NCBI RefSeq assembly: GCF_000025685.1
Contig: NC_013966.1
Span: 240,001 to 272,000, forward strand
DNA: 32,000 nucleotides
Reading direction: 5' to 3'
DNA from: Haloferax volcanii DS2
GTDB taxonomy: Archaea > Halobacteriota > Halobacteria > Halobacteriales > Haloferacaceae
The position numbers were made by a program, and so were the translations under genes. Under the pieces are notes generated by a model. That model was not told the DNA's origin, did not search any database, and saw only the letters and a list, made by a program, of their open reading frames with translations. Positions 3,415-25,884 of the stretch are shown one piece after another (within the stretch, counting starts at the first letter, position 1; the number at the start of each line of letters is the position of its first letter).

Positions 3415-3696
3415 GTTCTATATCATTCGTGTTGGACACCGCTAACGCAGTGTCGCTCCCCTCTTCGATCCCAGAGTGACAGCTGGACGCTATCAACGAA
3501 CGTCTACAGAAGAGCGATGTCTGAAAATGCAAGTAAATGTTATATATCCTGAATGAAACAAGATTAACTGGTGACAGGATGTCTGAGAAAAGAAGAAAGT
3601 TGACTCGAATGGGTCGGCGTAGGTTCCTGAATACTCTCAGCAGTTTGGGCGTAGGAGGCGCAGCGATTTCGTTCATGTCCCAGGATGCGTTTGCAG

Positions 3697-7480: not shown

Positions 7481-8008
7481 TCATTTCTCTTGGCAGTCGC
7501 TACGGGCGCGTTGCTGACGGGCACGTTCGTAGCGTGTTCGCTCGTTCCGAGCGGTCGCCCAGTCGCCGAGGTCACCGTACACGTCATCGATCGTCCGGTC
7601 GTCGCTCGATTGGGCAGCGGCGACGGCGTCGACGGCCGCTGGCGTCGGAGCACCATACGTGTCCTCGTACCCCTCGATCCGCGAGCTCAGTTCCCGAACG
7701 CGCTGCTGGAGGTCTTCGACGGAGTGGTCGGCCGCGAGTTGGTTGATTCGCCGCCACTCGAAGTAGGCGTCGTTGCGCTCGTACGTGGCCGGATGGCTAT
7801 TGTGGCGCGTGACGATACCGAGTTCACTGAACCAGCCCAGATATTTCCGAGCCGTTTTCGGGTCACAGTCGGCGGCGTTGGCGATAGCGCTTGCTGTCGT
7901 CGGCTCGCGAGTCTGGAGAACCGTCCCGTAGATGCGTTGCTCAACGTCGTCGCCACGAAACGCATCCTCGAAAGAGGGCGGGCCATCTGGAGACTCGCTG
8001 TTGGACAT
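7481..8008 (-). CDS. winged-helix DNA-binding protein (175 aa), first gene of the Doc operon
   Basis: N-terminal wHTH-like segment TTASAIANAADCDPKTARKYLGWFSELGIVTR followed by a long helical C-terminus. It ends 62 nt upstream of doc. Confidence 0.7.
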   Translation of the reverse strand: MSNSESPDGPPSFEDAFRGDDVEQRIYGTVLQTREPTTASAIANAADCDPKTARKYLGWFSELGIVTRHNSHPATYERNDAYFEWRRINQLAADHSVEDLQQRVRELSSRIEGYEDTYGAPTPAAVDAVAAAQSSDDRTIDDVYGDLGDWATARNERTRYERARQQRARSDCQEK

Positions 8009-9135: not shown

Positions 9136-9726
9136 TCAGAACTCGTTTCCGTTACCCTCCGCTCCACTTAGTTGGTCATACATCTCGTCTGGGAATGGGA
9201 GACTTCCCCAGATCGAGTAGGGGCACTGCTCCTGGCCGATGCAGTACCGCTGCATATCGTCGTTGTCACAGTTCATCGGAAGCGGGGTGTCGCCTCCAAT
9301 GGTGTTCGAGAACTCGTAGCGAATCTGGTAATCGGTGACCTGTTCGTCGTACCAGGGCCACCGCGAGAAGACGTCCTTGAGGTCTGCGACAATCGTCTCG
9401 AGGTCACTATCCTGGTACTGGGGAAGCCACATCACCATCCGGGCGAAGTTGTACAGGTCCTTTCGGACAGGCTTCTTCTCGTGGAGGCGCTCGGCCATAT
9501 TCGCCATACAGGGAAGCTCGAACAGGTCTTCGATTGCCTCGACGTCGATGGACTGGACGCCACGAGAAGACTCCTGAATCCGATAGTGGTTCGTATTTCC
9601 GTGCTCTCGAATGGTCAGACTCCGGTGGTCGCGCTGGGATGCGAGAAGGTTCCCGAGACTTCGAGGACTCGAGATGCGATTACATACGTCTCGCTTCCAG
9701 CCTGCTTCCGGGTCGTAGGACTCCAC
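9136..9726 (-). CDS. hypothetical Cys-containing protein. The frame stays open and protein-like upstream to about 9900 with no canonical start.
   Basis: The GTG-started ORF includes WPWYDEQVTDYQIRYEFS and C-x8-C-x6-C (MNCDNDDMQRYCIGQEQCPYS). The in-frame upstream extension reads ESAITERIDRFIETGHHERIWRDWNPGERTIRVLRDAIRDAPDEVVSLGEFHSAKELFEAV. Confidence 0.55.
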   Translation of the reverse strand: MESYDPEAGWKRDVCNRISSPRSLGNLLASQRDHRSLTIREHGNTNHYRIQESSRGVQSIDVEAIEDLFELPCMANMAERLHEKKPVRKDLYNFARMVMWLPQYQDSDLETIVADLKDVFSRWPWYDEQVTDYQIRYEFSNTIGGDTPLPMNCDNDDMQRYCIGQEQCPYSIWGSLPFPDEMYDQLSGAEGNGNEF

Positions 9727-11016: not shown

Positions 11017-11378
11017 GCGGAGCAACACGAAGAACTCTGGACAGAGTTCGTTGAGGAGGCTGTCGAACGCGCAGACTATCCGGAGCTGAAGGAAACGCCA
11101 GGTCGATTGAAAACAGCGTTCGCTGAAAAGATTCGGAACCTCAACTAAACGGTTCTGTTAGTCTTGGAGCGTGGCGACTGCTCGGCCTGTTTCCTCGGCC
11201 TCTTCGCTGCGCGACATGTTGTACGTCGCGAGTGCTTCGTCAACCGCTTCATCAAGACTCATTGGTCAATCTAATCTTGATTCTTCTGTCGTATAAATAC
11301 TTGCCTGGCTAAAACGTCAGCCCTCTCGGTGGGAAGATCACAACCCAAACCACGCACAATCTGCTCGCTTTTCAAACT

Positions 11379-12776
11379 CAGTACCTCACAAAGCATCCTC
11401 GCCTAGCTGTCTCTGAAGCCTGAATTCTGTGGCCGAGCGGTTGCATTGGCGGTCTCGACGACAGAATCATGGACGGATCGGCGGAGAGCCGTCGCTGTCG
11501 GCGGCGGCTGCCGCCGACGCGACAGCGTCGCCACTCCCACTGTTGGCTAGCCCGGTCGGGAGTTACCGGTGGAACCGGTCGTCTGGTGGTCGGTTCGCGG
11601 GGACGGCCCGACGCACCGCGAGGGCCGTCCACGCTGCTCGACGGACCATATTGATGAACTCCTTGAACGACCACTCCCAGAGGCGACGCCCCCCACGGCG
11701 GGGCGTCGCCACGTACTCCCAGTGCAAATACCGCCAGACGTTCTGTAACAGCAGGCTCACCACGACGTACAACAGCCGTACGACCGGATTTTGTGTCGAG
11801 GTCGTCGCGATACTTTGCTCGGAGAGTCGATAGCTTGCCTCGATACCGAAGCGTTTCGCGTAGTGGTATCGAGCGTCCCGTGGTGAGTCGATGAACGGCG
11901 CGTCAGCGGCGTAGCCGTGACGCGCCACGCCATGTTCGTCGTACCGTCCGTTCTGGTAGGTACAGTCGATGTAGACGGGAAACTCGACGGTCCAGCTGTG
12001 ACCGTCGAGTTTCGCTGTCAGACTGTGCTGAATCACGCGACTCCACCCTTCTGAGAGTTCTCGCTTGATCGTCCGTCCCCAGCGGACGATCGGCATGACG
12101 TAGGCGTGGTTGTGCGCCTGAAGCAGCGTCAAACACTTGCTGTCGTAGAATTCGCGGTCAAGATAGACGGCCTTGACACCGAGGTCAAGGCCGTCGAGAA
12201 TACCGAGGAACTCTGCGAGGACACTGCTGGCGGTGTCGCCGTCTTCGAGACGGCGCACCGCCAGCGTGTAGCGTTTGTTCTTCACGCGTGCGTACAGTGT
12301 CGCGTACGCGTGAAACGCGGTGGTTCCACGCTTCGCTTGTGAGTGATACAGGCCGTCTGTATCGTCTTCGTCGCCGTAGTAGGGCCGCAGGTGGAGGTCT
12401 GCGCAGACCTCCACCTGCTGGGGAAGGACGTCGAGAACGTCTTTCTGGAGGAGCGTGTTCCCGATTTGTTCGAGCGTCTCGAGGTCGAACTTGGTGCGGA
12501 GATGGTAGAGAACCGAGTTTTCGTGAGGTGCATCTTCGCTTCTCTTGCAGAGTGTAGAGACCGAGGTCCCGTCGGCGCAGGCGCCGACGAGGACCTCGTA
12601 GATGTCTTCAGCATCGAGTTCAGCGTTTTCAGCGAGTGAGAGAGCAACTTCCTCGTCAAGAGAGTTGACGAGGAAGTTAAGGAGCTGGTCCTCGTGGATT
12701 TCATCGTCTGTTTGCTGGTTGTTGGACACATCTTCAGCAAGCAGACCTTCTAACTAAACGGCTTTGTGAGGTACTG
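11379..12776 (-). mobile_element. ISH3-family insertion sequence, copy A, 1398 bp, 5 bp TSD
   Basis: Perfect 16 bp IRs CAGTACCTCACAAAGC at both ends. Direct duplication AAACT at 11374-11378 and 12777-12781. Confidence 0.9.
11563..12729 (-). CDS. ISH3-family transposase (388 aa)
   Basis: Full-length ORF inside the IR-bounded element. It has 9 aa differences from the copy at 24290..25456. Confidence 0.9.
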   Translation of the reverse strand: MSNNQQTDDEIHEDQLLNFLVNSLDEEVALSLAENAELDAEDIYEVLVGACADGTSVSTLCKRSEDAPHENSVLYHLRTKFDLETLEQIGNTLLQKDVLDVLPQQVEVCADLHLRPYYGDEDDTDGLYHSQAKRGTTAFHAYATLYARVKNKRYTLAVRRLEDGDTASSVLAEFLGILDGLDLGVKAVYLDREFYDSKCLTLLQAHNHAYVMPIVRWGRTIKRELSEGWSRVIQHSLTAKLDGHSWTVEFPVYIDCTYQNGRYDEHGVARHGYAADAPFIDSPRDARYHYAKRFGIEASYRLSEQSIATTSTQNPVVRLLYVVVSLLLQNVWRYLHWEYVATPRRGGRRLWEWSFKEFINMVRRAAWTALAVRRAVPANRPPDDRFHR

Positions 12777-12919
12777 AAACTGGACCAAGCAGACAGTAGC
12801 TCTCGTGTTGTACACACCGGTTCGTTGTTAGTGATCCCAACTGGACCCGTGGGGCTTGTCAGTAGACTCGAGCCGTCGTAACGAAGGGCGGCAGCGCAAT
12901 CGCAGTTCAGGTATCAACC

Positions 12920-12954
12920 CGAGTGCCTCGGAGCTTGACCCCGAGGTGGTTCAC
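12920..12954. repeat. 35 bp hairpin-containing repeat, copy 2
   Basis: See 10982-11016. This copy overlaps the stop codon of the gene at 12951..13325. Confidence 0.7.
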
Positions 12955-13325
12955 TCTGTACCAGAGTCTGCATCTTCAGACTCATCGAGATCAGGGAGAT
13001 TTGCATCCCAGTCCGGATTCTCGTCGTAGTAGTCGCCCTCAAACTGCTCGCTCACGGCAGCCAAGCCAATCAAGCTCGCAGTATGTGCATCGTAGGCGTC
13101 GGGATTGATCGCCCAATACTCGCCCTTGTGACGCACAAACCCCTGGTTATGGAGTCTGCTGAGCGTCGTTCCAACACTTCCTCGTGGGATGTCGAGCGCC
13201 TCAACAATCTCACCCGCTCGATAGCCTGTTTCTGGAGTCGCTGCGAGGAAGCGAAGAATGGTCCGTCCATTCGTATTCGGTCCTGGAAGATCCGATGGCT
13301 GGTAGTTTTCGAAATCAACGGGCAT
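12951..13325 (-). CDS. MarR-like winged-helix regulator (124 aa)
   Basis: From ATG 13325 the sequence reads MPVDFENYQ...GRTILRFLAATPETGYRAGEIVEALDIPRGSVGTTLSRLHNQGFVRHKGEYWAI. The tail is acidic. The longer track ORF reaching 13475 has a basic, non-halophilic N-terminus. Confidence 0.7.
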   Translation of the reverse strand: MPVDFENYQPSDLPGPNTNGRTILRFLAATPETGYRAGEIVEALDIPRGSVGTTLSRLHNQGFVRHKGEYWAINPDAYDAHTASLIGLAAVSEQFEGDYYDENPDWDANLPDLDESEDADSGTE

Positions 13326-13461
13326 ATGTAACAGTATGTAACGGAAAGTAATAGACTTGCCGGAGTAGTTGTTCCAAAGTACTCTTTGGACGCTGGAACG
13401 TCTCGATCGACGCGTTCTCCCAATAGAAGTGCGATGAATCTGAGGTCGTTGAGGGATACTA

Positions 13462-13497
13462 GTTTTTACTGGCAAAAGTGGTGTGTCTGACAGAGTA
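13462..13497. repeat. 35 bp intergenic repeat, copy 1 (partner at 14769-14804)
   Basis: tttttactggcaaaagtggtgtgtctgacagagta versus gttttactggcaagagtggtgtgtctgatagggta (31/35). Both copies lie in divergent promoter regions. Confidence 0.75.
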
Positions 13498-13728
13498 TCC
13501 GCAGAGTGGCGAGTTATCTAGCGAGGGACTGTTGAAAGCCAGAGACGGCACAGTATCCGCATCAATGGGCGTTGTCAGGGGGGAGTCGCCTACTCTTGGC
13601 CTAAAGTTCTCTGCGAGTTTCTCGGGGAGATTCAAGATGCAGCGGAACTCAATTTCACAGAACGGTTGGGCTGCTCTGCCTGTAGAAATGCACTGGAATA
13701 CCAATAGGAATCATCTCCACCACAAACC

Positions 13729-14132
13729 ATGACTAGAAACACACTCACCGTCCGTGTCGAATCGAACGACGAGTTCTTCGACCGTGCACTTGAAGCCGCA
13801 GCGAAAGCCGACGCTGGTGAACTGACTGATGACCACACTGGCGTCTCACTTCCAGACGAGGCTGCACTTGCACGTGTTCTGAGCGAAAAGATCTCGAACT
13901 GATCCGGACTACTGCCCGCGAAGAACCGAAGAGTCTCCGCGAACTCGCACGACTCGTTAATCGTGACATCAAGAACGTCTCGACCGCGGTCAACGACCTC
14001 GCAGAACTCGGACTTGTCGAATTTGAACAGGATGGCCGATCAAAGCGGCCGGTCGTCTGGTACAGCGACATCCACGTTGAGTACGACCTTGGCGTTGAGG
14101 CGGATGATACCGAGGTCGCTGCACAGAATTAG
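13729..14132 (+). pseudogene. HTH DNA-binding protein with a -1 frameshift near 13891
   Basis: Frame 1 reads MTRNTLTVRVESNDEFFDRALEAAAKADAGELTDDHTGVSLPDEAALARVLSEKISN* (stop at 13900-13902). The next frame continues ELIRTTAREEPKSLRELARLVNRDIKNVSTAVNDLAELGLVEFEQDGRSKRPVVWY... to 14132. Total length is 404 nt, which is 3n-1. Confidence 0.7.
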
Positions 14133-14137
14133 CTTGA

Positions 14138-14551
14138 CTACTGCTGTTCTGGACGGGGTGCGTTCTCGTACTTGACCATCTTCTCGGGCTTGTCGGAGAT
14201 AGTCTCGTAGATTTGCTGGAGCGTCTCCTCAGCGGCGAGCAGATTGTGTTCCTCAAGGAATGTTCGACCGTCCTCAGTCAGGCCGTAGAACTTCCAAGGA
14301 TAGCCTTGTCGGCGCTGGTCGTCGTCAAGTGCGACTTCTTTGACGATGCCGGCGTCGATCAACTTCTGGATGTGCTTGTAGACGGTGGCATCGCTGACGC
14401 TGGGGTTGAACTCCTCAAGTTCGTACATTGAAGGCAGCTGCTTGGGGTGCTGGAGGATGTTATTGACGAGCGCGAACCGCGTCTGCTGGGTGACGAAATG
14501 GATGAGTTCACGGGACCTCTCTCCACCAGCGGTTCCCAGATCGGTACTCAT
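14138..14551 (-). CDS. winged-helix transcriptional regulator (137 aa)
   Basis: wHTH segment LPSMYELEEFNPSVSDATVYKHIQKLIDAGIVKEV followed by a wing (GYPWKFYGLTEDG). Confidence 0.75.
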   Translation of the reverse strand: MSTDLGTAGGERSRELIHFVTQQTRFALVNNILQHPKQLPSMYELEEFNPSVSDATVYKHIQKLIDAGIVKEVALDDDQRRQGYPWKFYGLTEDGRTFLEEHNLLAAEETLQQIYETISDKPEKMVKYENAPRPEQQ

Positions 14552-14768
14552 ACATCACAGTTCGCACTCTGACGCAAAGTAGTTTACCCTTGGGTAAATC
14601 ACTCTGGGATAAACCAAAATGAATCTGAATGGGTGACTTAGTTGATGTGTCCGGAGAACTCCCGTGACGAGGAACGGAATCGCCATTCTCGACCGAATTA
14701 CTACTGTGTGAGTGCCGGGTCACTATCGGTTCCAAATCACGTCTTCATAGCGGCTGTTGATGGGTGCT

Positions 14769-14804
14769 GGTTTTACTGGCAAGAGTGGTGTGTCTGATAG
14801 GGTA
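14769..14804. repeat. 35 bp intergenic repeat, copy 2
   Basis: See 13462-13497. It lies 85 nt upstream of the ATPase ATG at 14889 and is followed by the tandem TAGCCTATT-N6-TAGCCTATT (14813-14836). Confidence 0.75.
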
Positions 14805-14888
14805 ATTGAAGATAGCCTATTTCAGAATAGCCTATTCTGTATTTGGTTATTCGGCATGATTAACTTCTTGCGAGAATATATGTGGTTC

Positions 14889-16274
14889 ATGGAACGCTTT
14901 GTGGATCGGGAAATCGAATTATCTCGGCTGCGAGAGTCCTACGCGTCCGACAGCCCAGAGATGATTGTTATCTTTGGACGGCGTCGCCTCGGAAAGACAC
15001 AACTCGTTCAACACTCACTCACGCAGCGAGATGATGCCGTCGTATACCAAGCGACGCAGACGACACCACAGGTGCAACTCGACGAATTCGTTGACGTCGC
15101 TTCAGGTTCCTTCCCTGGAATCGAACACATCAAACAGAATTGGGAGTCACTACTCGGATATCTTGTCGAACAAGGCGGAATTGTCGTACTCGACGAATTT
15201 CCATATCTCATCGACGCCGACAAGAGCATCCCTTCGGTGATTCAGCGATTGTGGGACCAACGCCTCCAGAACACGAGTGGAACACTCATCCTCGTTGGAT
15301 CATCGATTAGCATGATGGAGGAAGCAACCCTGTTAGGAAACAGCCCACTTTACGGGCGATTCACCGAGAAAATCGATCTCCGACAACTCGGATTTGCTGC
15401 TGCCCAGGAGTTCTTCCCGGACAGCTACAAGCCTGAAGACCGAATTTTTGCATGGGGCATCTTCGGTGGTGTTCCATACTATCTCGATGGCATTGACCTT
15501 GAGCACGACCTTGGAACCGTGATTTCTGACTCCCTCCTCTCACAGCGGGGATATCTCCATAACGAACCGGAGTACGTCCTCCGAACTGAGTTAACTGAGC
15601 CGAATCGATACTTTGCGATTCTCAAGGCCATCGCTGCAGGGAATACCACGTCAAACGAGATTGCACAGATGGTTGGGATCGACGGAAAACAGATTTCGAC
15701 CTACACCCAGAAGCTAGAGCGCCTTCGGCTCATCGAACGTGAAGTCCCACTCACAGAAGAGAAAGCTCGCTCTCGCCGTGGCCGGTACCGTATTCTCGAC
15801 CCGCTATTTCGGTTTTGGTTCCGATTTGTCTACGGGAACGAAGATCGATACGAGCGATTGGGCGACGAAGCGTATGAGGCAGTCATCGAGCCTGAGCTCC
15901 CTGACTTCGTGAGTTCACAGTTTGAAGTCCTCTGCCAGGATGCGCTTCCTGGATTGTACCCGGATAAAACGTTCTTAGATATCGGCCGGTGGTGGTACAA
16001 AGAACACGAAGTCGACGTCGTCGGTTTCACTACGGAGGGAACGATGGTCGTCGGCGAGTGTAAATTCACGAACGCCCCGCTCGACTATAGTGCGCTTGCG
16101 TCACTCGAAGAACACACAGAAGAGATCAGATGGACCCCTGACAGTGGCGGAGATATCGACAAAGAGTATGCACTGTTTACTCGGAGCGGGGCGACCCAAA
16201 CTGTCCGAGAAGCAGTTGCAAAGCGGGATAACTTGCAGTTGTTTGGGTTAAATGATATAACCAACAACGTGTGA
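14889..16274 (+). CDS. Arch_ATPase/DUF234-type NTPase with an internal wHTH and a C-terminal PD-(D/E)xK-like motif (461 aa)
   Basis: Walker A GRRRLGKT (14976-14999) and Walker B IVVLDEFPYL. wHTH RYFAILKAIAAGNTTSNEIAQMVGIDGKQISTYTQKLERLRLIE. The DUF234-type segment is RYRILDPLFRFWFRFV. The C-terminus reads HEVDVVGF...VVGECKF (about 16008-16064). The start is chosen at ATG 14889 (MERFVDRE). Confidence 0.85.
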   Translation: MERFVDREIELSRLRESYASDSPEMIVIFGRRRLGKTQLVQHSLTQRDDAVVYQATQTTPQVQLDEFVDVASGSFPGIEHIKQNWESLLGYLVEQGGIVVLDEFPYLIDADKSIPSVIQRLWDQRLQNTSGTLILVGSSISMMEEATLLGNSPLYGRFTEKIDLRQLGFAAAQEFFPDSYKPEDRIFAWGIFGGVPYYLDGIDLEHDLGTVISDSLLSQRGYLHNEPEYVLRTELTEPNRYFAILKAIAAGNTTSNEIAQMVGIDGKQISTYTQKLERLRLIEREVPLTEEKARSRRGRYRILDPLFRFWFRFVYGNEDRYERLGDEAYEAVIEPELPDFVSSQFEVLCQDALPGLYPDKTFLDIGRWWYKEHEVDVVGFTTEGTMVVGECKFTNAPLDYSALASLEEHTEEIRWTPDSGGDIDKEYALFTRSGATQTVREAVAKRDNLQLFGLNDITNNV

Positions 16275-16423
16275 CTCACAGCTCTTGGAAGTCTGAGGTG
16301 CAAACATCCCGATGGTTCACCAATTATTCTCGGCGGCACTTGAGTCGACCAAACAACTTTGCTGTGGCATCGTGTGGACACTACTGGAGACAGACTGTGT
16401 CACATGCGTCTCCAGAATCCCCC

Positions 16424-16576
16424 ATGACGAGTGATTCGACGGCGCTTGGTCGATGTCCTGATTGCAGCGAAGTGATTGAAGCATACCAGTCACTCATTGA
16501 GTTCGAAGATGGCGATGGGTCAACTGGCGTGTTCGCTGAGTGCTATTCCTGCGACGAAGTTGTTCGTCCAGAGTGA
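16424..16576 (+). CDS. small zinc-ribbon protein (50 aa)
   Basis: MTSDSTALGRCPDCSEVIEAYQSLIEFEDGDGSTGVFAECYSCDEVVRPE has two CxxC pairs and is acidic. It starts 150 nt downstream of the ATPase stop on the same strand. Confidence 0.5.
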   Translation: MTSDSTALGRCPDCSEVIEAYQSLIEFEDGDGSTGVFAECYSCDEVVRPE

Positions 16577-16731: not shown

Positions 16732-16771
16732 TTAACCAACAAAATTTTTGATTAGCCCTTGTGTTGGTTAA
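16732..16771. promoter_or_regulatory. palindromic operator-like site TTAACCAACA-N20-TGTTGGTTAA over a promoter
   Basis: Arms at 16732-16741 and 16762-16771. The spacer contains the AT-rich aaaatttttgatta (TATA-like). The site ends 17 nt before ATG 16788. Confidence 0.55.
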
Positions 16772-16787
16772 CACGAGGCAGCAGCCG

Positions 16788-17111
16788 ATGTCCGACGAAC
16801 CACCGACGCCGCCGACGAGCCTCTCCACAGAAGTCGTCGACGCCCTGAATAACTTATCGCCGAACAGTCTCCGAGACGTTGCCCGCTATGCCGAAGAGTT
16901 GGCCGAACACAAGGAGCGTGAGGTTCGTCGCGAGGAAGAGCCACCGGAAGGGGAACTCGAAGAACGGTCGGATGACCTTCCAGATGATGTCCCCACGAAG
17001 GCGACGATTACGATCAAAGAGATCAACGACAAACGCTACTACTACTGGCAGTGGCGAGAGGGTGACAAAATCAAGTCTAAGTATAAAGGACCAGTCAATT
17101 CCGGTGAATAG
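16788..17111 (+). CDS. hypothetical protein (107 aa) with an acidic, disordered N-terminal half and a YYYWQWREGDKIKSKYKGPV C-terminus
   Basis: ATG 16788 gives MSDEPPTPPTSL.... The ORF is convergent with the 3' end of orc1 and is followed directly by an ORB-like repeat cluster. Confidence 0.6.
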   Translation: MSDEPPTPPTSLSTEVVDALNNLSPNSLRDVARYAEELAEHKEREVRREEEPPEGELEERSDDLPDDVPTKATITIKEINDKRYYYWQWREGDKIKSKYKGPVNSGE

Positions 17112-17143
17112 GAAGGGCAACTTCCATGAGATCGAGGGCCACC

Positions 17144-17372
17144 ACACCCCGTGTGCGAAGTGAATTTTCTGATTACCCGTGGACCCCGTGTGAGAGATGA
17201 ATCGAATGACAAGTTGAGAGGTGACACACCCCGTGTACAAGATGAATAATCAAAGACTCAACTGTTCCTTAAGCGCTCTCGCGCATGAATAGCGCATATT
17301 TACACTTTGCACACGGGGTGTGGGTTACCAGACTGAACAAGTCAGAACTTACATTCGTGACCAGGGGTGTGT
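17144..17372. repeat. ORB-like repeat cluster (dialect 2), consensus CACACCCCGTGTnnnAGnTGAAT
   Basis: Direct copies at 17144-17166, 17182-17202 and 17225-17247. Inverted copies at 17298-17322 and, degenerate, at 17353-17372. The cluster lies immediately 3' of orc1. Confidence 0.6.
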
Positions 17373-17390: not shown

Positions 17391-18668
17391 TTACGCGAGA
17401 TCTTCCAGTCGGCTATCACGGAGCACAGATTTCAGCACAATACCAGTATCCTGAACCAGTCGATGCTCAAGGTAGCTCCCTTCTCCCCGTCCACCGCCAG
17501 TTCGGGTCGATTCCACCACGCCGAGGAACGCCTGCTCCTTCAGCAGTTCATAGACGCGGTGTTCGCTCAGAACCTTCGCATCGACCGTCTCAGCAGTGTT
17601 CTGGTAGCGCTTGTAAATACGGCTTGTCGAGAATTCGTCTTCGTTCGAGCTCTCCTCGGTCAACAATGCAAGTGAGTAGAGAATGAACTTGACCTGAGTC
17701 GTCGATCCACGAAGTAACTCCTCGAATCGGTCAACCTCTGCCCATTCTTGAGCATCGCGAACGTGCTCTGCGACGACCTGGTCAGCGTTTTCTCGCTCAG
17801 CGAGTTCGCCCGCGTGTCGGAGAATCTCGATCGCCTTCCTGGCGTCGCCATGTTCCTGTGCGGCGAGTGCCGCAGTTAGCGGGATGACGTCGTCAGAGAG
17901 AACGTCGTCGTGGAACGCGTCACGGCGGTGCTTCATTATCCCACGGAGTTGATTCGCGTCGTAGGGCTGGAAGACGAACTCTTCTTCACGAAGGCTTGAC
18001 TTGACGCGCTCGTTCAACTGGTCCCGATACTCGATTTTGTTACTCACCGCGATAACGCCCAGGTGACAATCGGCTTTCCCAGATTCACGGGCTCGTGAGA
18101 GCTGCATCAGAATATCATCGTCGTTCAGGCGGTCAACCTCATCGAGAATGATGACAACAGCATCGTAGGCGAGATTCAGAATCTCCCAGAGGTAGTCGTA
18201 ATATTCCCCACTGCCAATCCCTGCTCGTGGGACGTCGAAGTCAGTTTTTTCGGTCTTGTTGAGCTCCCGTGTCACTGTTCGGGCAACACGGGTCTGTGTA
18301 TTGTGCTGTGCACAGTCGACGTAGACAGTCCCGACCGAAACCCCATTTGACTCTGCGGCTCGACGGGCACGTTCTGTGACATGGCGAGCAACCAGCGACT
18401 TGCCCGTCCCTGTCTTGCCGTAGATCATGACGTTGTTAGGCGGGTCATTTTGAACGATCGGCCTGAGTTCAGCAGCGATGTCTTTGATTTCTTCGTCACG
18501 GCCGACGATTCGGGCACTTTCCGGGACGTGACCAACCTTCAGGAGTTCCTTGCGAGTAAAAATGTCGACCCGGTCAGGGTCGTCTCCATCAATATTGAAC
18601 AGCGGATCCTCAGCCGGGTCTTCGTACCGGTCGTTGAAGTCAGAGAGTTGCGACGGGTCATCAGCCAT
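17391..18668 (-). CDS. orc1: Orc1/Cdc6 replication initiator (425 aa)
   Basis: AAA+ Walker A GKTGTGKS, Walker B VVIILDEVD, and a C-terminal winged helix (HRVYELLKEQAFLGVVES). Flanked by ORB-like repeats. Confidence 0.95.
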   Translation of the reverse strand: MADDPSQLSDFNDRYEDPAEDPLFNIDGDDPDRVDIFTRKELLKVGHVPESARIVGRDEEIKDIAAELRPIVQNDPPNNVMIYGKTGTGKSLVARHVTERARRAAESNGVSVGTVYVDCAQHNTQTRVARTVTRELNKTEKTDFDVPRAGIGSGEYYDYLWEILNLAYDAVVIILDEVDRLNDDDILMQLSRARESGKADCHLGVIAVSNKIEYRDQLNERVKSSLREEEFVFQPYDANQLRGIMKHRRDAFHDDVLSDDVIPLTAALAAQEHGDARKAIEILRHAGELAERENADQVVAEHVRDAQEWAEVDRFEELLRGSTTQVKFILYSLALLTEESSNEDEFSTSRIYKRYQNTAETVDAKVLSEHRVYELLKEQAFLGVVESTRTGGGRGEGSYLEHRLVQDTGIVLKSVLRDSRLEDLA

Positions 18669-24216: not shown

Positions 24217-24242
24217 ACGACTATCATGAGGCTATGAATGAT

Positions 24243-25640
24243 CAGTACTTCACAAAGCCGTTTAGTTAGAAGGTCTGCTTGCTGAAGATGTGTCCAACAA
24301 CCAGCAAACAGACGATGAAATCCACGAGGACCAGCTCCTTAACTTCCTCGTCAACTCTCTTGACGAGGAAGTTGCTCTCTCACTCGCTGAAAACGCTGAA
24401 CTCGATGCTGAAGACATCTACGAGGTCCTCGTCGGCGCCTGCGCCGACGGGACCTCAGTCTCAACGCTCTGTGAGAGAAGCGAAGATGCACCCCACGAAA
24501 ACTCCGTTCTCTACCATCTCCGCACTAAATTCGATCTAGAAACGCTCGAACAGGTTGGCAACATGCTCCTCCAGAAAGACGTTCTCGACGTCCTTCCCCA
24601 GCAGGTGGAGGTCTGCGCAGACCTCCACCTGCGGCCCTACTATGGTGACGAAGACGACACGGACGGCCTGTATCACTCACAAGCGAAGCGTGGAACCACC
24701 GCGTTCCACGCCTACGCGACGCTGTACGCACGCGTGAAGAACAAACGCTACACGCTGGCGGTGCGCCGTCTCGAAGACGGCGACACCGCCAGCAGTGTCC
24801 TCGCAGAGTTCCTCGGTATTCTCGACGGCCTTGACCTCGGTGTCAAGGCCGTCTATCTTGACCGCGAATTCTACGACAGCAAGTGTTTGACGCTGCTTCA
24901 GGCGCACAACCACGCCTACGTCATGCCGATCGTCCGCTGGGGACGGACGATCAAGCGAGAACTCTCAGAAGGGTGGAGTCGCGTGATTCAGCACAGTCTG
25001 ACGGCGAGACTCGACGGTCACAGCTGGACCGTCGAGTTCCCCGTCTACATCGACTGTACCTACCAGAACGGACGGTACGACGAACATGGGGTGGCGCGTC
25101 ACGGCTACGCCGCTGACGCGCCGTTCATCAACTCACCACGAGACGCTCGATACCACTACGCGAAACGCTTCGGTATCGAGGCGAGCTACCGACTCTCCGA
25201 GCAAAGTATTGCGACGACCTCGACACAAAATCCGGTTGTACGGCTGCTGTACGTCGTGGTGAGCTTGCTGTTACAGAACGTGTGGCGGTATCTGCACTGG
25301 GAGTACGTGGCGACGCCCCGCCGAGGCGGGCGTCGCCTCTGGCAGTGGCCATTCAAGGAGTTCATCAACATGATCCGACGGGCAGCGTGGACGGCCCTCG
25401 CGACGCGTCGGGCCGTCCCCGCGAACCGGCCACCGGACGACCGGTTCCACCGGTAACTCCCGACCGGGCTAGCCAACGGTGGGAGTGGCGACGCTGTCGC
25501 GTCGGCGGCAGCCGCCGCCGACAGCGACGGCTCTCCGCCGATCCGTCCATGATTCTCTCGTCGAAACCGCCAGTCCAACCGCTCCGCCACAGAACTCAGG
25601 CTTCAGAAACAGCTAGCCGAGGACGCTTTGTGAAGTACTG
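24243..25640 (+). mobile_element. ISH3-family insertion sequence, copy B, 1398 bp, 5 bp TSD
   Basis: Perfect 16 bp IRs CAGTACTTCACAAAGC. Direct duplication ATGAT at 24238-24242 and 25641-25645. Inverted relative to copy A. Confidence 0.9.
24290..25456 (+). CDS. ISH3-family transposase (388 aa)
   Basis: Full-length ORF with 9 aa differences from 11563..12729. Confidence 0.9.
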   Translation: MSNNQQTDDEIHEDQLLNFLVNSLDEEVALSLAENAELDAEDIYEVLVGACADGTSVSTLCERSEDAPHENSVLYHLRTKFDLETLEQVGNMLLQKDVLDVLPQQVEVCADLHLRPYYGDEDDTDGLYHSQAKRGTTAFHAYATLYARVKNKRYTLAVRRLEDGDTASSVLAEFLGILDGLDLGVKAVYLDREFYDSKCLTLLQAHNHAYVMPIVRWGRTIKRELSEGWSRVIQHSLTARLDGHSWTVEFPVYIDCTYQNGRYDEHGVARHGYAADAPFINSPRDARYHYAKRFGIEASYRLSEQSIATTSTQNPVVRLLYVVVSLLLQNVWRYLHWEYVATPRRGGRRLWQWPFKEFINMIRRAAWTALATRRAVPANRPPDDRFHR

Positions 25641-25884
25641 ATGATACGTATTTTGTCTCCTCCAATATATCACGCCACGCAGTCGGAGTGTCGGCGTCAC
25701 CGTCACACAGCTGTGGTTGCGGTTCTTGTTGTCTGAATGACTGATGTCTCATGCCGTGAAACACCGTCTCAGCCAATGACTATACTTGCGGTTGAATTCG
25801 TACTGAATATATGAATAAAACCGCATTACGGGCGACCGTGGACCGCGATCGACGCAACCGAAGGTTGGACGGAGTAAGTGTCTG

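What the first reader, a model, noticed from the sequence alone, without database searches (positions are those of the whole stretch)
12951..16576. Candidate conflict system: NTPase-wHTH-nuclease-like protein with a zinc-ribbon partner, embedded among three wHTH regulators
The 461 aa protein combines an Arch_ATPase-type P-loop (GRRRLGKT, VVLDEF), an internal winged helix, the DUF234-type segment, and a C-terminal D...E-x-K arrangement (EVDVVGF...VVGECKF). That arrangement matches the PD-(D/E)xK nuclease signature. NTPase, DNA-binding and nuclease fusions are a recurrent design of prokaryotic immune and abortive-infection proteins. This family has no assigned function that I know of. Here it sits in an IS-rich island beside TA modules and a broken methyltransferase. 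A 50 aa double-CxxC protein follows it. Three small wHTH genes precede it, one of them frameshifted. It is the most plausible undescribed system in the window, though it may equally be a plasmid maintenance factor.
Basis: partly seen in the sequence, partly recalled or inferred. Interest (0 to 1): 0.7.

Follow-up and report, generated by a model that had tools for sequence, protein, structure and literature searches.

The report
Self-regulated ATPase-nuclease gene, catalogued defence candidate
The 461-residue protein is a real ATPase, DNA-binding and nuclease fusion, but it belongs to a family already listed as an untested anti-virus candidate (PDC-S27). It is a stand-alone gene that carries its own control site, not a multi-gene system with the zinc-ribbon and regulator genes next to it.

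Summary
The window is Haloferax volcanii DS2 plasmid pHV4, about 240-272 kb. The ATPase is ADE01671.1, by position probably HVO_A0254. The zinc ribbon is HVO_A0254A, and the Orc1 gene is orc7.

There is an ATPase_2 P-loop, an internal winged helix, and DUF234 with a conserved E...D...ExK motif. The models are very confident (pLDDT 96-97). The C-terminal domain matches PD-(D/E)xK nucleases (MspJI, NucS/EndoMS, AF1548).

- **Family already catalogued.** DUF234 has been classed as PD-(D/E)xK since 2005-2012. The whole architecture is PADLOC candidate PDC-S27, reported in 71% of Halobacteria genomes. It is unvalidated, and the one heterologous test was not among the protective systems.
- **Neighbours are not partners.** In about 55 haloarchaeal loci encoding 74-88% identical proteins, none of the neighbours is conserved. 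The PadR-like regulator, the DUF6788 ORF and orc7 form a plasmid replication module that occurs elsewhere without the ATPase.

New here: the gene travels as a sharply bounded cassette with about 55 bp of conserved upstream DNA. That DNA holds three 10-bp boxes (two forming a palindrome in the consensus) abutting a TATA-like element. Diverged subfamilies, including bacterial ones, carry different palindromes and different recognition helices. This points to autoregulation by the protein's own winged helix.

The most likely function is an ATP-switched, DNA-binding nuclease used in genetic conflict. That function is unproven.

The parts
14811..14866 (+). Conserved 5' control region of the cassette. 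Box 1 ATAGCCTATT is at 14812-14821 and box 2 ATAGCCTATT at 14827-14836. A diverged box 3 (ATTTGGTTATT) lies at about 14841-14851. A BRE/TATA-like CGGCATGATTAAC lies about 30 nt before the ATG, which fits a leaderless transcript.
   Evidence: Information content across 56 loci is about 0.05 bits upstream of -85. It rises to 0.8-1.4 bits (10-nt block means) from about -78 to -21 (sequences). The boxes keep a fixed 15-bp spacing at -75, -60 and -45.
14889..16274 (+). Gene for the 461-aa ATPase_2, winged-helix, DUF234 protein (ADE01671.1; by position probably HVO_A0254). It belongs to the PADLOC PDC-S27 family.
   Evidence: Pfam. PADLOC E 1.1e-40. Exact-sequence look-up. AlphaFold2 pLDDT 96.9, pTM 0.93.
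14976..14999 (+). Walker A GRRRLGKT (residues 30-37).
   Evidence: G30, R32, R33, G35 and K36 are invariant in 85 sequences.
15183..15200 (+). Walker B VVLDEF (residues 99-104).
   Evidence: D102 and E103 are invariant.
15600..15794 (+). Winged helix (residues 238-302). The recognition helix is GKQISTYTQKLER (266-278) and the wing is SRRGRYRI.
   Evidence: DSSP elements of the model. The helix is nearly invariant in all loci that carry the TAGCCTA-type boxes. It differs in subfamilies that carry other palindromes.
15795..16271 (+). C-terminal PD-(D/E)xK nuclease domain (residues 303-461). Candidate catalytic residues are E346 (15924-15926), D376 (16014-16016), E390 (16056-16058) and K392 (16062-16064).
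   Evidence: Domain model pLDDT 96.0. Foldseek hits: MspJI E 1.5e-4 (TM 0.55), NucS/EndoMS, AF1548 and the LlaBIII nuclease. Profile hit to AF1548 at E 0.0012. Residue conservation.
16424..16576 (+). Context, not part of the unit. This is HVO_A0254A, a 50-aa DUF7837 C(P)XCG micro-protein.
   Evidence: Pfam. Identity with D4GQT4. The purified protein binds no zinc but another metal (PMC11241148). The deletion mutant had no phenotype (PMC6562870). The family also occurs without the ATPase.
14138..14551 (-). Context, not part of the unit. A PadR/MarR-like winged-helix gene that belongs to a plasmid replication module together with the DUF6788 ORF (16761-17111) and orc7 (17391-18668).
   Evidence: Homologues at 91%, 69% and 89% identity lie contiguously in Hrr. 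trapanicum pCBA1232-01, with no ATPase or zinc ribbon between them.

Best explanation
HVO_A0254 is a single-gene, self-contained cassette of the ATPase_2/DUF234 family (COG1672, PADLOC PDC-S27).

**Architecture.** The protein has three parts:
- an ORC/Cdc6- and TnsC-like AAA+ ATPase with a lid;
- a winged helix;
- a C-terminal PD-(D/E)xK nuclease with an intact E...D...ExK site.

**Proposed mechanism.**
1. The winged helix binds the subfamily-specific repeat or palindrome that abuts the gene's own BRE/TATA. This represses the gene and keeps the nuclease level low. This step is inferred from co-variation.
2. ATP binding and hydrolysis, with the conserved R157 as a probable arginine finger, drive oligomer assembly on DNA, as in ORC and TnsC. 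This step is inferred from homology.
3. Assembly positions or activates the nuclease to cut DNA. This step is inferred from conserved catalytic residues.

**Proposed role.** The most likely biological role is genetic conflict, either defence against viruses and plasmids or competition between mobile elements. This is inferred only from the architecture and from the published guilt-by-embedding candidacy.

**Neighbours.** The zinc ribbon, the three wHTH genes and orc7 are plasmid backbone into which the cassette is inserted.
For: **Architecture and fold**.
- Profile hits: 2qen (E 1.8e-20), 2fna (E 2.5e-16), VchTnsC (E 3e-9), AF1548 (E 0.0012-0.0022).
- Structural hits: 2fna, ORC/Cdc6 and NLR NB-ARC for the N-terminal three quarters; MspJI, NucS and AF1548 for the C-terminus.
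- The motifs are conserved in 85 diverse sequences.
- PADLOC PDC-S27 at E 1e-40.

**Single-gene nature.**
- No neighbour is conserved in 70 loci. The next most frequent gene clusters occur in 10 or fewer loci.
- The flanking genes are heterogeneous.

**Cassette with its own control region.**
- DNA conservation starts abruptly at about -78 and ends at the stop codon.

**Autoregulation.**
- The recognition helix is nearly invariant wherever the TAGCCTA boxes occur. It changes together with the palindrome in L053, L055, L056 and the bacterial groups.
- Upstream palindromes exceed dinucleotide shuffles at p<=0.01 in 27% of 63 distant homologues, and at p<=0.05 in 38%.

**Horizontal spread.**
- Identity does not follow taxonomy: 83% to Natrinema against 80% to Halorubrum.
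- Some genomes hold several copies.
- An occupied and an empty site are seen in Haloferax plasmids.
Against: - No experiment shows nuclease, ATPase or DNA-binding activity for any full-length member that I found.
- The defence label rests on guilt-by-embedding only (bioRxiv 10.1101/2024.01.29.577857).
- One PDC-S27 representative was tested in E. coli B against T4, T5 and T7. It was not among the four of eight candidates that protected (PMC12881386).
- Most neighbours are ordinary genes such as SecY, metabolic enzymes and transporters. Only roughly a tenth of the 102 flanking genes hit any PADLOC model, several of them only candidate models, and no control set was run.
- 74-88% identity across haloarchaeal orders is unusually high for a defence gene.
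- In the window itself, box 3 has diverged from the consensus.
- No transcription start data could be retrieved.
Confidence: 0.55

Rival explanations
1. The cassette is mainly a selfish mobile gene. On this reading the autoregulated nuclease-ATPase spreads and persists for its own sake, through homing-like or site-specific insertion or through addiction, and any benefit to the host is incidental.
For: - The unit is sharply bounded and has its own promoter.
- Sequence identity is inconsistent with taxonomy, some genomes hold several copies, and insertion contexts vary.
- There is an occupied-versus-empty site polymorphism between ParA and DUF7837.
- Direct repeats of 24-27 bp flank the cassette in L025, L082, L100 and L108, and a 311-bp duplication flanks it in L012.
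- The AAA+ domain is related to the transposition protein TnsC.
- Distant family members lie on 74 IMG/VR contigs.
Against: - There are no terminal inverted repeats.
- Most of the 93 loci show no flanking repeat. Only four or five do, and each repeat has a different sequence.
- The unit encodes no recombinase or transposase.
- The window copy has no flanking repeat.
- The repeats could come from accretion at island integration sites by an unrelated integrase. One example is the repeated secY 3' end in L029.
Confidence: 0.2
2. One reading: a multi-gene conflict system. In it the ATPase-nuclease works with the DUF7837 zinc-ribbon protein and is controlled by the three neighbouring wHTH regulators.
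For: - The ATPase and DUF7837 are adjacent in several Haloferax loci.
- A paralogous ATPase, only 38% identical, also sits directly before DUF7837 in Hfx. larsenii pHl5678-1.
Against: - About 50 non-Haloferax loci whose ATPase is 74-88% identical lack an adjacent DUF7837 and all three wHTH genes.
- DUF7837 occurs without the ATPase in L084, L086 and L087.
- L084 looks like the empty version of the L082 site.
- The PadR-like gene, the DUF6788 ORF and orc7 are a separate conserved module.
- One of the wHTH genes is a pseudogene.
- The HVO_A0254A deletion had no phenotype. Its proteome change concerned motility proteins.
Confidence: 0.07
3. The protein is a housekeeping or plasmid-maintenance DNA enzyme. 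It could be a replication or partition accessory of the orc7 replicon, or a NucS-like repair nuclease.
For: - It lies 1.1 kb from orc7 and next to ORB-like repeats.
- It has an ORC/Cdc6-like fold and a NucS/EndoMS-like nuclease fold.
- Sequence conservation is high.
- The family is reported in 71% of Halobacteria genomes.
Against: - An Orc1 gene lies within 6 kb in only 10 of 70 loci.
- The same replication module exists without the ATPase.
- Copy number is variable and there is no synteny.
- The gene is absent from many genomes.
Confidence: 0.1

Closest known systems
PADLOC phage defence candidate PDC-S27 (ATPase_2 + DUF234; COG1672)
   Same: The whole protein matches the two PDC-S27 HMMs at E 1.1e-40 and 1.5e-31. 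The domain order is the same as described in the literature: an ATPase fused to a PD-(D/E)xK domain. It is a single-gene unit, as the 'S' class implies.
   Different: Nothing in the architecture differs. The literature I could read does not mention the conserved self-operator or the cassette boundary found here. The family is an untested candidate, and one heterologous test did not protect.
Archaeal Walker-type ATPases with solved structures: SSO1545 (2fna) and the P. abyssi ATPase (2qen)
   Same: They share the AAA+, lid and winged-helix module. Profile E-values are 2.5e-16 and 1.8e-20. 2fna is the best Foldseek hit, with TM 0.50/0.64.
   Different: The chains are 350-357 residues, and the matches end near query residue 285. 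They therefore show no counterpart of the C-terminal nuclease domain.
ORC/Cdc6 initiators and TnsC/TniB-type AAA+ proteins
   Same: The fold of the ATPase plus winged helix is shared. There is a profile hit to VchTnsC at E 3e-9. Both groups assemble on DNA in an ATP-dependent way, which is established knowledge of those families.
   Different: Neither group carries a nuclease domain. HVO_A0254 shows no conserved linkage to origins or to transposase genes.
PD-(D/E)xK nucleases MspJI, NucS/EndoMS, AF1548 and the Shedu SduA nuclease
   Same: They share the core fold and the D...ExK site.
   Different: Sequence identity is only 10-21%. The partner domains differ: an SRA-like reader in MspJI and a ssDNA/PCNA-binding domain in NucS (my knowledge). 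None of them has an N-terminal AAA+ ATPase.
PDC-S01 (AAA_14 + DUF4143)
   Same: It is an analogous ATPase plus PD-(D/E)xK single-gene candidate (PMC12988326). HVO_A0254 gives weak hits to it, at E 4e-8.
   Different: It uses different Pfam families, and HVO_A0254 matches PDC-S27 far better.

Membership tests
Pfam ATPase_2 + DUF234 architecture / PADLOC PDC-S27 | ATPase_2 (PF01637) domain above the gathering score | tested here: met
   83 bits against a cut-off of 33.2, residues 4-199.
Pfam ATPase_2 + DUF234 architecture / PADLOC PDC-S27 | DUF234 (PF03008) domain above the gathering score, C-terminal to the ATPase | tested here: met
   67.3 bits against a cut-off of 22.5, residues 310-395.
Pfam ATPase_2 + DUF234 architecture / PADLOC PDC-S27 | Match to the PDC-S27 HMMs over most of the protein | tested here: met
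   PDLC04984 at E 1.1e-40 (residues 1-352). PDLC04985 at E 1.5e-31 (residues 4-412 against profile positions 6-434 of 484).
Pfam ATPase_2 + DUF234 architecture / PADLOC PDC-S27 | Protection against viruses | not testable with these tools
   The family is only a candidate. One representative did not protect E. coli B against T4, T5 or T7.
PD-(D/E)xK nuclease superfamily | Alpha-beta-beta-beta-alpha-beta core fold | tested here: met
   Model pLDDT 96. The secondary-structure order is helix, three strands, helix, strand. Foldseek hits are MspJI, NucS/EndoMS, AF1548 and LlaBIII.
PD-(D/E)xK nuclease superfamily | Conserved catalytic D...(D/E)xK, with an upstream E | tested here: met
   E346 85/85, D376 84/85, E390 84/85, K392 81/85.
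PD-(D/E)xK nuclease superfamily | Metal-dependent phosphodiester cleavage | not testable with these tools
   Needs an in vitro assay.
AAA+ ATPases of the ORC/Cdc6-TnsC kind | Walker A, Walker B and a conserved arginine after sensor 1, followed by a lid and a winged helix | tested here: met
   GRRRxGK(T/S), DE and R157 are invariant. Structural and profile matches.
Multi-gene system: ATPase-nuclease + DUF7837 zinc ribbon + wHTH regulators | Conserved co-occurrence of the component genes across lineages | tested here: not met
   The genes are adjacent only in Haloferax loci. They are absent next to the ATPase in about 50 other loci. DUF7837 is found without the ATPase.
Transposon or homing element | Terminal inverted repeats, or consistent target-site duplications or flanking half-sites | tested here: not met
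   No inverted-repeat signal exceeds the control. Direct repeats are significant in only 4-5 of 93 loci, and their sequences are unrelated.

The most novel reading that the evidence does not exclude
PDC-S27/DUF234 genes may be autonomous, self-repressed nuclease cassettes. On this reading the winged helix marks 'self' by sitting on a private palindrome in the gene's own promoter. The cassettes would move between genomes by a so far undescribed insertion route that sometimes leaves 24-27-bp direct repeats. They would then be a new kind of single-gene selfish or defence element, not a conventional host immune gene.
Probability: 0.12. Interest if true: 0.65.

Novelty: already known. Interest (0 to 1): 0.33.

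Why it matters
PDC-S27 is reported as the second most prevalent candidate defence in Halobacteria (71% of genomes), and 43% of its detected occurrences are archaeal. No member has a demonstrated activity. H. volcanii DS2 is a genetically tractable model, so HVO_A0254 is a convenient place to test the family.

The conserved self-operator found here gives concrete handles for experiments: the box DNA, the recognition helix, K36, and D376/E390/K392. It also warns that the candidate may be a self-regulated mobile cassette and not a host defence gene.

As a discovery it adds little. The architecture, the nuclease assignment and the defence hypothesis are all already in the literature.

Tried and rejected
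- **Zinc ribbon as partner.** Tested from both sides, rejected as an obligate partner. From the ATPase side I used tblastn of the window's neighbour proteins against 78 loci and ORF clustering. From the DUF7837 side I used.
- **Three wHTH genes as regulators of the ATPase.** Rejected. They are not co-inherited with it, and the PadR-like one belongs to an orc-linked module.
- **The 34-nt direct repeat (13464 and 14771) as a shared operator.** It has one copy in Hfx. alexandrinus and no exact core match in any other fetched locus, so I left it unexplained.
- **Terminal inverted repeats and general target duplications around the cassette.** Not found.
- **Close relatives on IMG/VR viral contigs.** None were found. 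Only relatives at 21-36% identity appear.
- **Transcription start data for HVO_A0254.** Not in the held supplements.
- **Rfam and tRNA scans of the window.** Both empty.
- **Defence enrichment of neighbours.** I could only estimate this roughly, because no matched control set was available.

Full report
**Source and observation.**
The window is Haloferax volcanii DS2 plasmid pHV4, roughly 240,001-272,000.
- The 461-aa protein is an exact match to ADE01671.1 on a 635,786-bp contig.
- The Orc1/Cdc6 gene at 17391-18668 has the coordinates of orc7, HVO_A0257 (pHV4 257391-258668; PMC2841640).

- The ORF at 14889-16274 (+) carries ATPase_2 (83 bits), DUF234 (67 bits) and sub-threshold MarR/HTH hits at residues 241-285.
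- The 50-aa ORF at 16424-16576 is a DUF7837 protein (E 2.9e-20).
- Three winged-helix genes lie upstream. The middle one (13729-14132) has a 1-nt frameshift near 13888.

**The protein.**
- Homologues. A search of 1.84 billion representatives found 6,656 homologues, 1,172 of them at E<=1e-30.
- Conservation. In an alignment of 85 sequences that are 30-54% identical to the query, several positions are invariant: the Walker A G-R-R-R-x-G-K, the Walker B D102-E103, R157 and E346. D376, E390 and K392 are kept in 81-84 of 85.
- Models. AlphaFold2 gives a very confident model (pLDDT 96.9, pTM 0.93).
- N-terminal fold. The N-terminal three quarters resemble the archaeal ATPase SSO1545 (2fna), ORC/Cdc6 and NB-ARC modules.
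- Profile search. A profile search also finds the P. abyssi Walker-type ATPase 2qen (E 1.8e-20) and the transposition AAA+ protein TnsC (E 3e-9).
- C-terminal fold. The C-terminal domain, modelled alone (pLDDT 96.0), matches PD-(D/E)xK nucleases. These include MspJI (E 1.5e-4), NucS/EndoMS, AF1548, the LlaBIII nuclease, and further down SduA, Card1/Cdn1 and a Hachiman entry. AF1548 is also the only sequence-profile hit (E 0.0012).

**What is already known.**
- DUF234/COG1672 is family 76 in the PD-(D/E)xK survey of Steczkiewicz et al. 2012 (PMC3424549).
- The full protein matches PADLOC's PDC-S27 models at E 1e-40.
- PDCs are 145 untested candidates. They were nominated because family members were found embedded in BREX, DISARM or type I RM loci. 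As a group they associate less with other defences than systems found by enrichment (bioRxiv 10.1101/2024.01.29.577857).
- PDC-S27 is described as an ATPase fused to a PD-(D/E)xK domain. There were 3,503 archaeal and 4,562 bacterial calls (PMC12988326). It is present in 71.2% of Halobacteria genomes (bioRxiv 10.1101/2025.11.08.687337).
- One representative was tested in E. coli B against T4, T5 and T7. It was not among the four of eight candidates that protected (PMC12881386).

The defence idea is therefore published and still unproven.

**Neighbours.**
I fetched 78 genomic loci that encode relatives. About 55 of them are haloarchaeal and encode full-length proteins 74-88% identical to the query.
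- Window neighbours. tblastn with the window's neighbour proteins shows that the zinc ribbon, the three wHTH genes and orc7 accompany the ATPase only in Haloferax.
- ORF clustering. The ATPase occurs in 70 loci. The next real gene families occur in 10 (Orc1-like), 8 (the DUF6788 ORF), 7 (SecY) and 6 (ParA, TnpB) loci.
- Flanking genes. The 102 immediately flanking genes of 51 loci are heterogeneous. They include SecY, aldo-keto reductase, peptidases, transporters, transposases, Fic and a second DUF234 ATPase. Only roughly a tenth hit any PADLOC model, among them SoFic, Csx1-like, PDC-S04/S09/S24/S27, and TnpB matching Cas12f models.
- Replication module. In Hrr. trapanicum pCBA1232-01, orc1 (89% identical to orc7), a 107-aa ORF (69% identical to ORF 16761-17111, a DUF6788 protein) and the PadR-like gene (91%) lie side by side, with no ATPase or zinc ribbon. 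A Haladaptatus plasmid shows the same pairing next to ParA.
- DUF7837. It is a C(P)XCG micro-protein family, essentially restricted to Haloferax in the search I ran. It also occurs beside ParA/DUF7970 or an acyl-CoA dehydrogenase without any ATPase.
- HVO_A0254A. It has been purified (no zinc, but a metal with the mass of Co or Ni) and deleted (no phenotype).
- The one point in favour of a link. In Hfx. larsenii, a paralogous ATPase only 38% identical sits at the same place before DUF7837. A related contig has the same ParA...DUF7837 arrangement with no ATPase. That reads as presence or absence of a cassette in a plasmid backbone, not as a conserved pair.

**The cassette and its control region (new here).**
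- Boundary. I anchored 56 loci on the ATG. Upstream DNA is unrelated beyond -85 (0.05 bits per position). From about -78 to -21 it is roughly as conserved as the coding sequence (block means 0.8-1.4 bits). Similarity generally ends at the stop codon.
- Consensus. The consensus reads AAAATAGCCAATTCTAAATTAGCCTATTTTGAAATAGGCTATTCGGAAGTATTATTC. It contains three 10-bp boxes at -75, -60 and -45. Boxes 2 and 3 form a palindrome with 12-nt arms that abuts a BRE/TATA-like element about 30 nt from the ATG. That distance fits a leaderless haloarchaeal transcript (inference). In the window these elements lie at 14811-14866, and box 3 is diverged there.
- Co-variation. More distant members carry different palindromes at the same place. 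Examples are TTAGGGTATT/AATACCCTA (L053), TTCGGAAATC/GATTTCCGAA (L055) and TTACTGTAA/TTACGGTAA (L056). Lachnospiraceae homologues have perfect arms of at least 14 nt between a sigma-70-like promoter and the start codon. The recognition helix GKQISTYTQKLERLRL is nearly invariant in every locus with the TAGCCTA boxes and differs in each group with another palindrome.
- Statistics. Against dinucleotide shuffles, 27% of 63 distinct upstream regions of distant homologues reach p<=0.01 and 38% reach p<=0.05.
- Inference. No other gene is co-inherited, so the simplest reading is that the protein's own winged helix binds its own promoter. This is an inference. I could not retrieve transcription start data.

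**Mobility.**
- Taxonomy. Identity does not follow taxonomy: 83% to Natrinema, 82% to Halarchaeum, 80% to Halorubrum.
- Copy number. Some genomes hold several copies, for example three in Halosimplex salinum.
- Viral contigs. No close relative is on IMG/VR contigs. Distant ones are on 74.
- Flanking repeats. There are no terminal inverted repeats and no general target duplication. A few loci do have significant flanking direct repeats: 27 bp in L025 (derived from the secY 3' end), 24 bp in L082, 27 bp in L100, 25 bp in L108 and 311 bp in L012. How the cassette moves is unexplained.

**Verdict.**
The architecture and the nuclease call are right. The 'system' is a single gene that belongs to a family already catalogued as an untested candidate, and the neighbours are plasmid backbone.

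The best-supported mechanism is a self-repressed, ATP-switched, DNA-binding nuclease. A defence role is plausible but unproven, and several observations count against it:
- the negative heterologous test;
- the ordinary neighbourhoods;
- the unusually high sequence conservation.

Interest is modest. The value lies in a tractable model gene and a concrete regulatory hypothesis.

Noticed in passing
window 17142-17323: There are four copies of a roughly 21-23-nt repeat (CCACACCCCGTGTGCGAAGTGAAT). Three are direct and one is inverted, between the DUF6788 ORF and the 3' end of orc7. The same motif recurs next to the homologous orc genes in other Haloferax loci and once in a Natrialba locus. It looks like origin-recognition boxes of an orc7-type replicon.
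   Followed up: partly
window 13464-13497 and 14771-14804: A 34-nt direct repeat, 91% identical (TTTTACTGGCAARAGTGGTGTGTCTGAYAGRGTA), lies upstream of the frameshifted wHTH gene and upstream of the ATPase cassette. The Hfx. alexandrinus locus has one copy. No exact match to the 23-nt core was found in the other loci fetched at that point. Its meaning is unknown.
   Followed up: partly
window 11378-12777 and 24242-25641: Two ISH3-family copies in inverted orientation (1400-nt arms, 96% complementary) bracket an 11.5-kb segment. That segment contains the whole finding and orc7. This is a composite-transposon-like or invertible arrangement.
   Followed up: no
window 14138-14551, 16761-17111, 17391-18668; L080 2178-4404; L081 1067-4416: The PadR-like wHTH gene, the DUF6788 ORF and an orc1/cdc6 gene form a module on haloarchaeal plasmids. 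The wHTH gene alone matches 60 plasmid records at the DNA level, with 82-87% identity across many genera. In pHV4 the module is split by the ATPase cassette and the zinc-ribbon gene.
   Followed up: partly
L025 about 7798-7824 and 9523-9549; L082 about 1905-1928 and 3497-3520; L100, L108, L012: Direct repeats of 24-27 bp (311 bp in L012), each with a different sequence, flank the ATPase cassette in a few loci. In L029 the secY 3'-end sequence occurs again between the ATPase and secY, with another gene between the copies. This suggests accretion of cassettes at an integration site.
   Followed up: partly
L082 1600-1900 and L084 3660-3920: Dense GTTCATGAA / ATGAACA-type repeats lie between parA and DUF7837 in Haloferax plasmids. 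They may be centromere-like partition sites.
   Followed up: no
L043 8001-9392 and about 16063 onward: Halovenus salina carries two diverged DUF234 ATPase genes, 76% and 47% identical to the query, within 8 kb. Each has a different upstream region.
   Followed up: no
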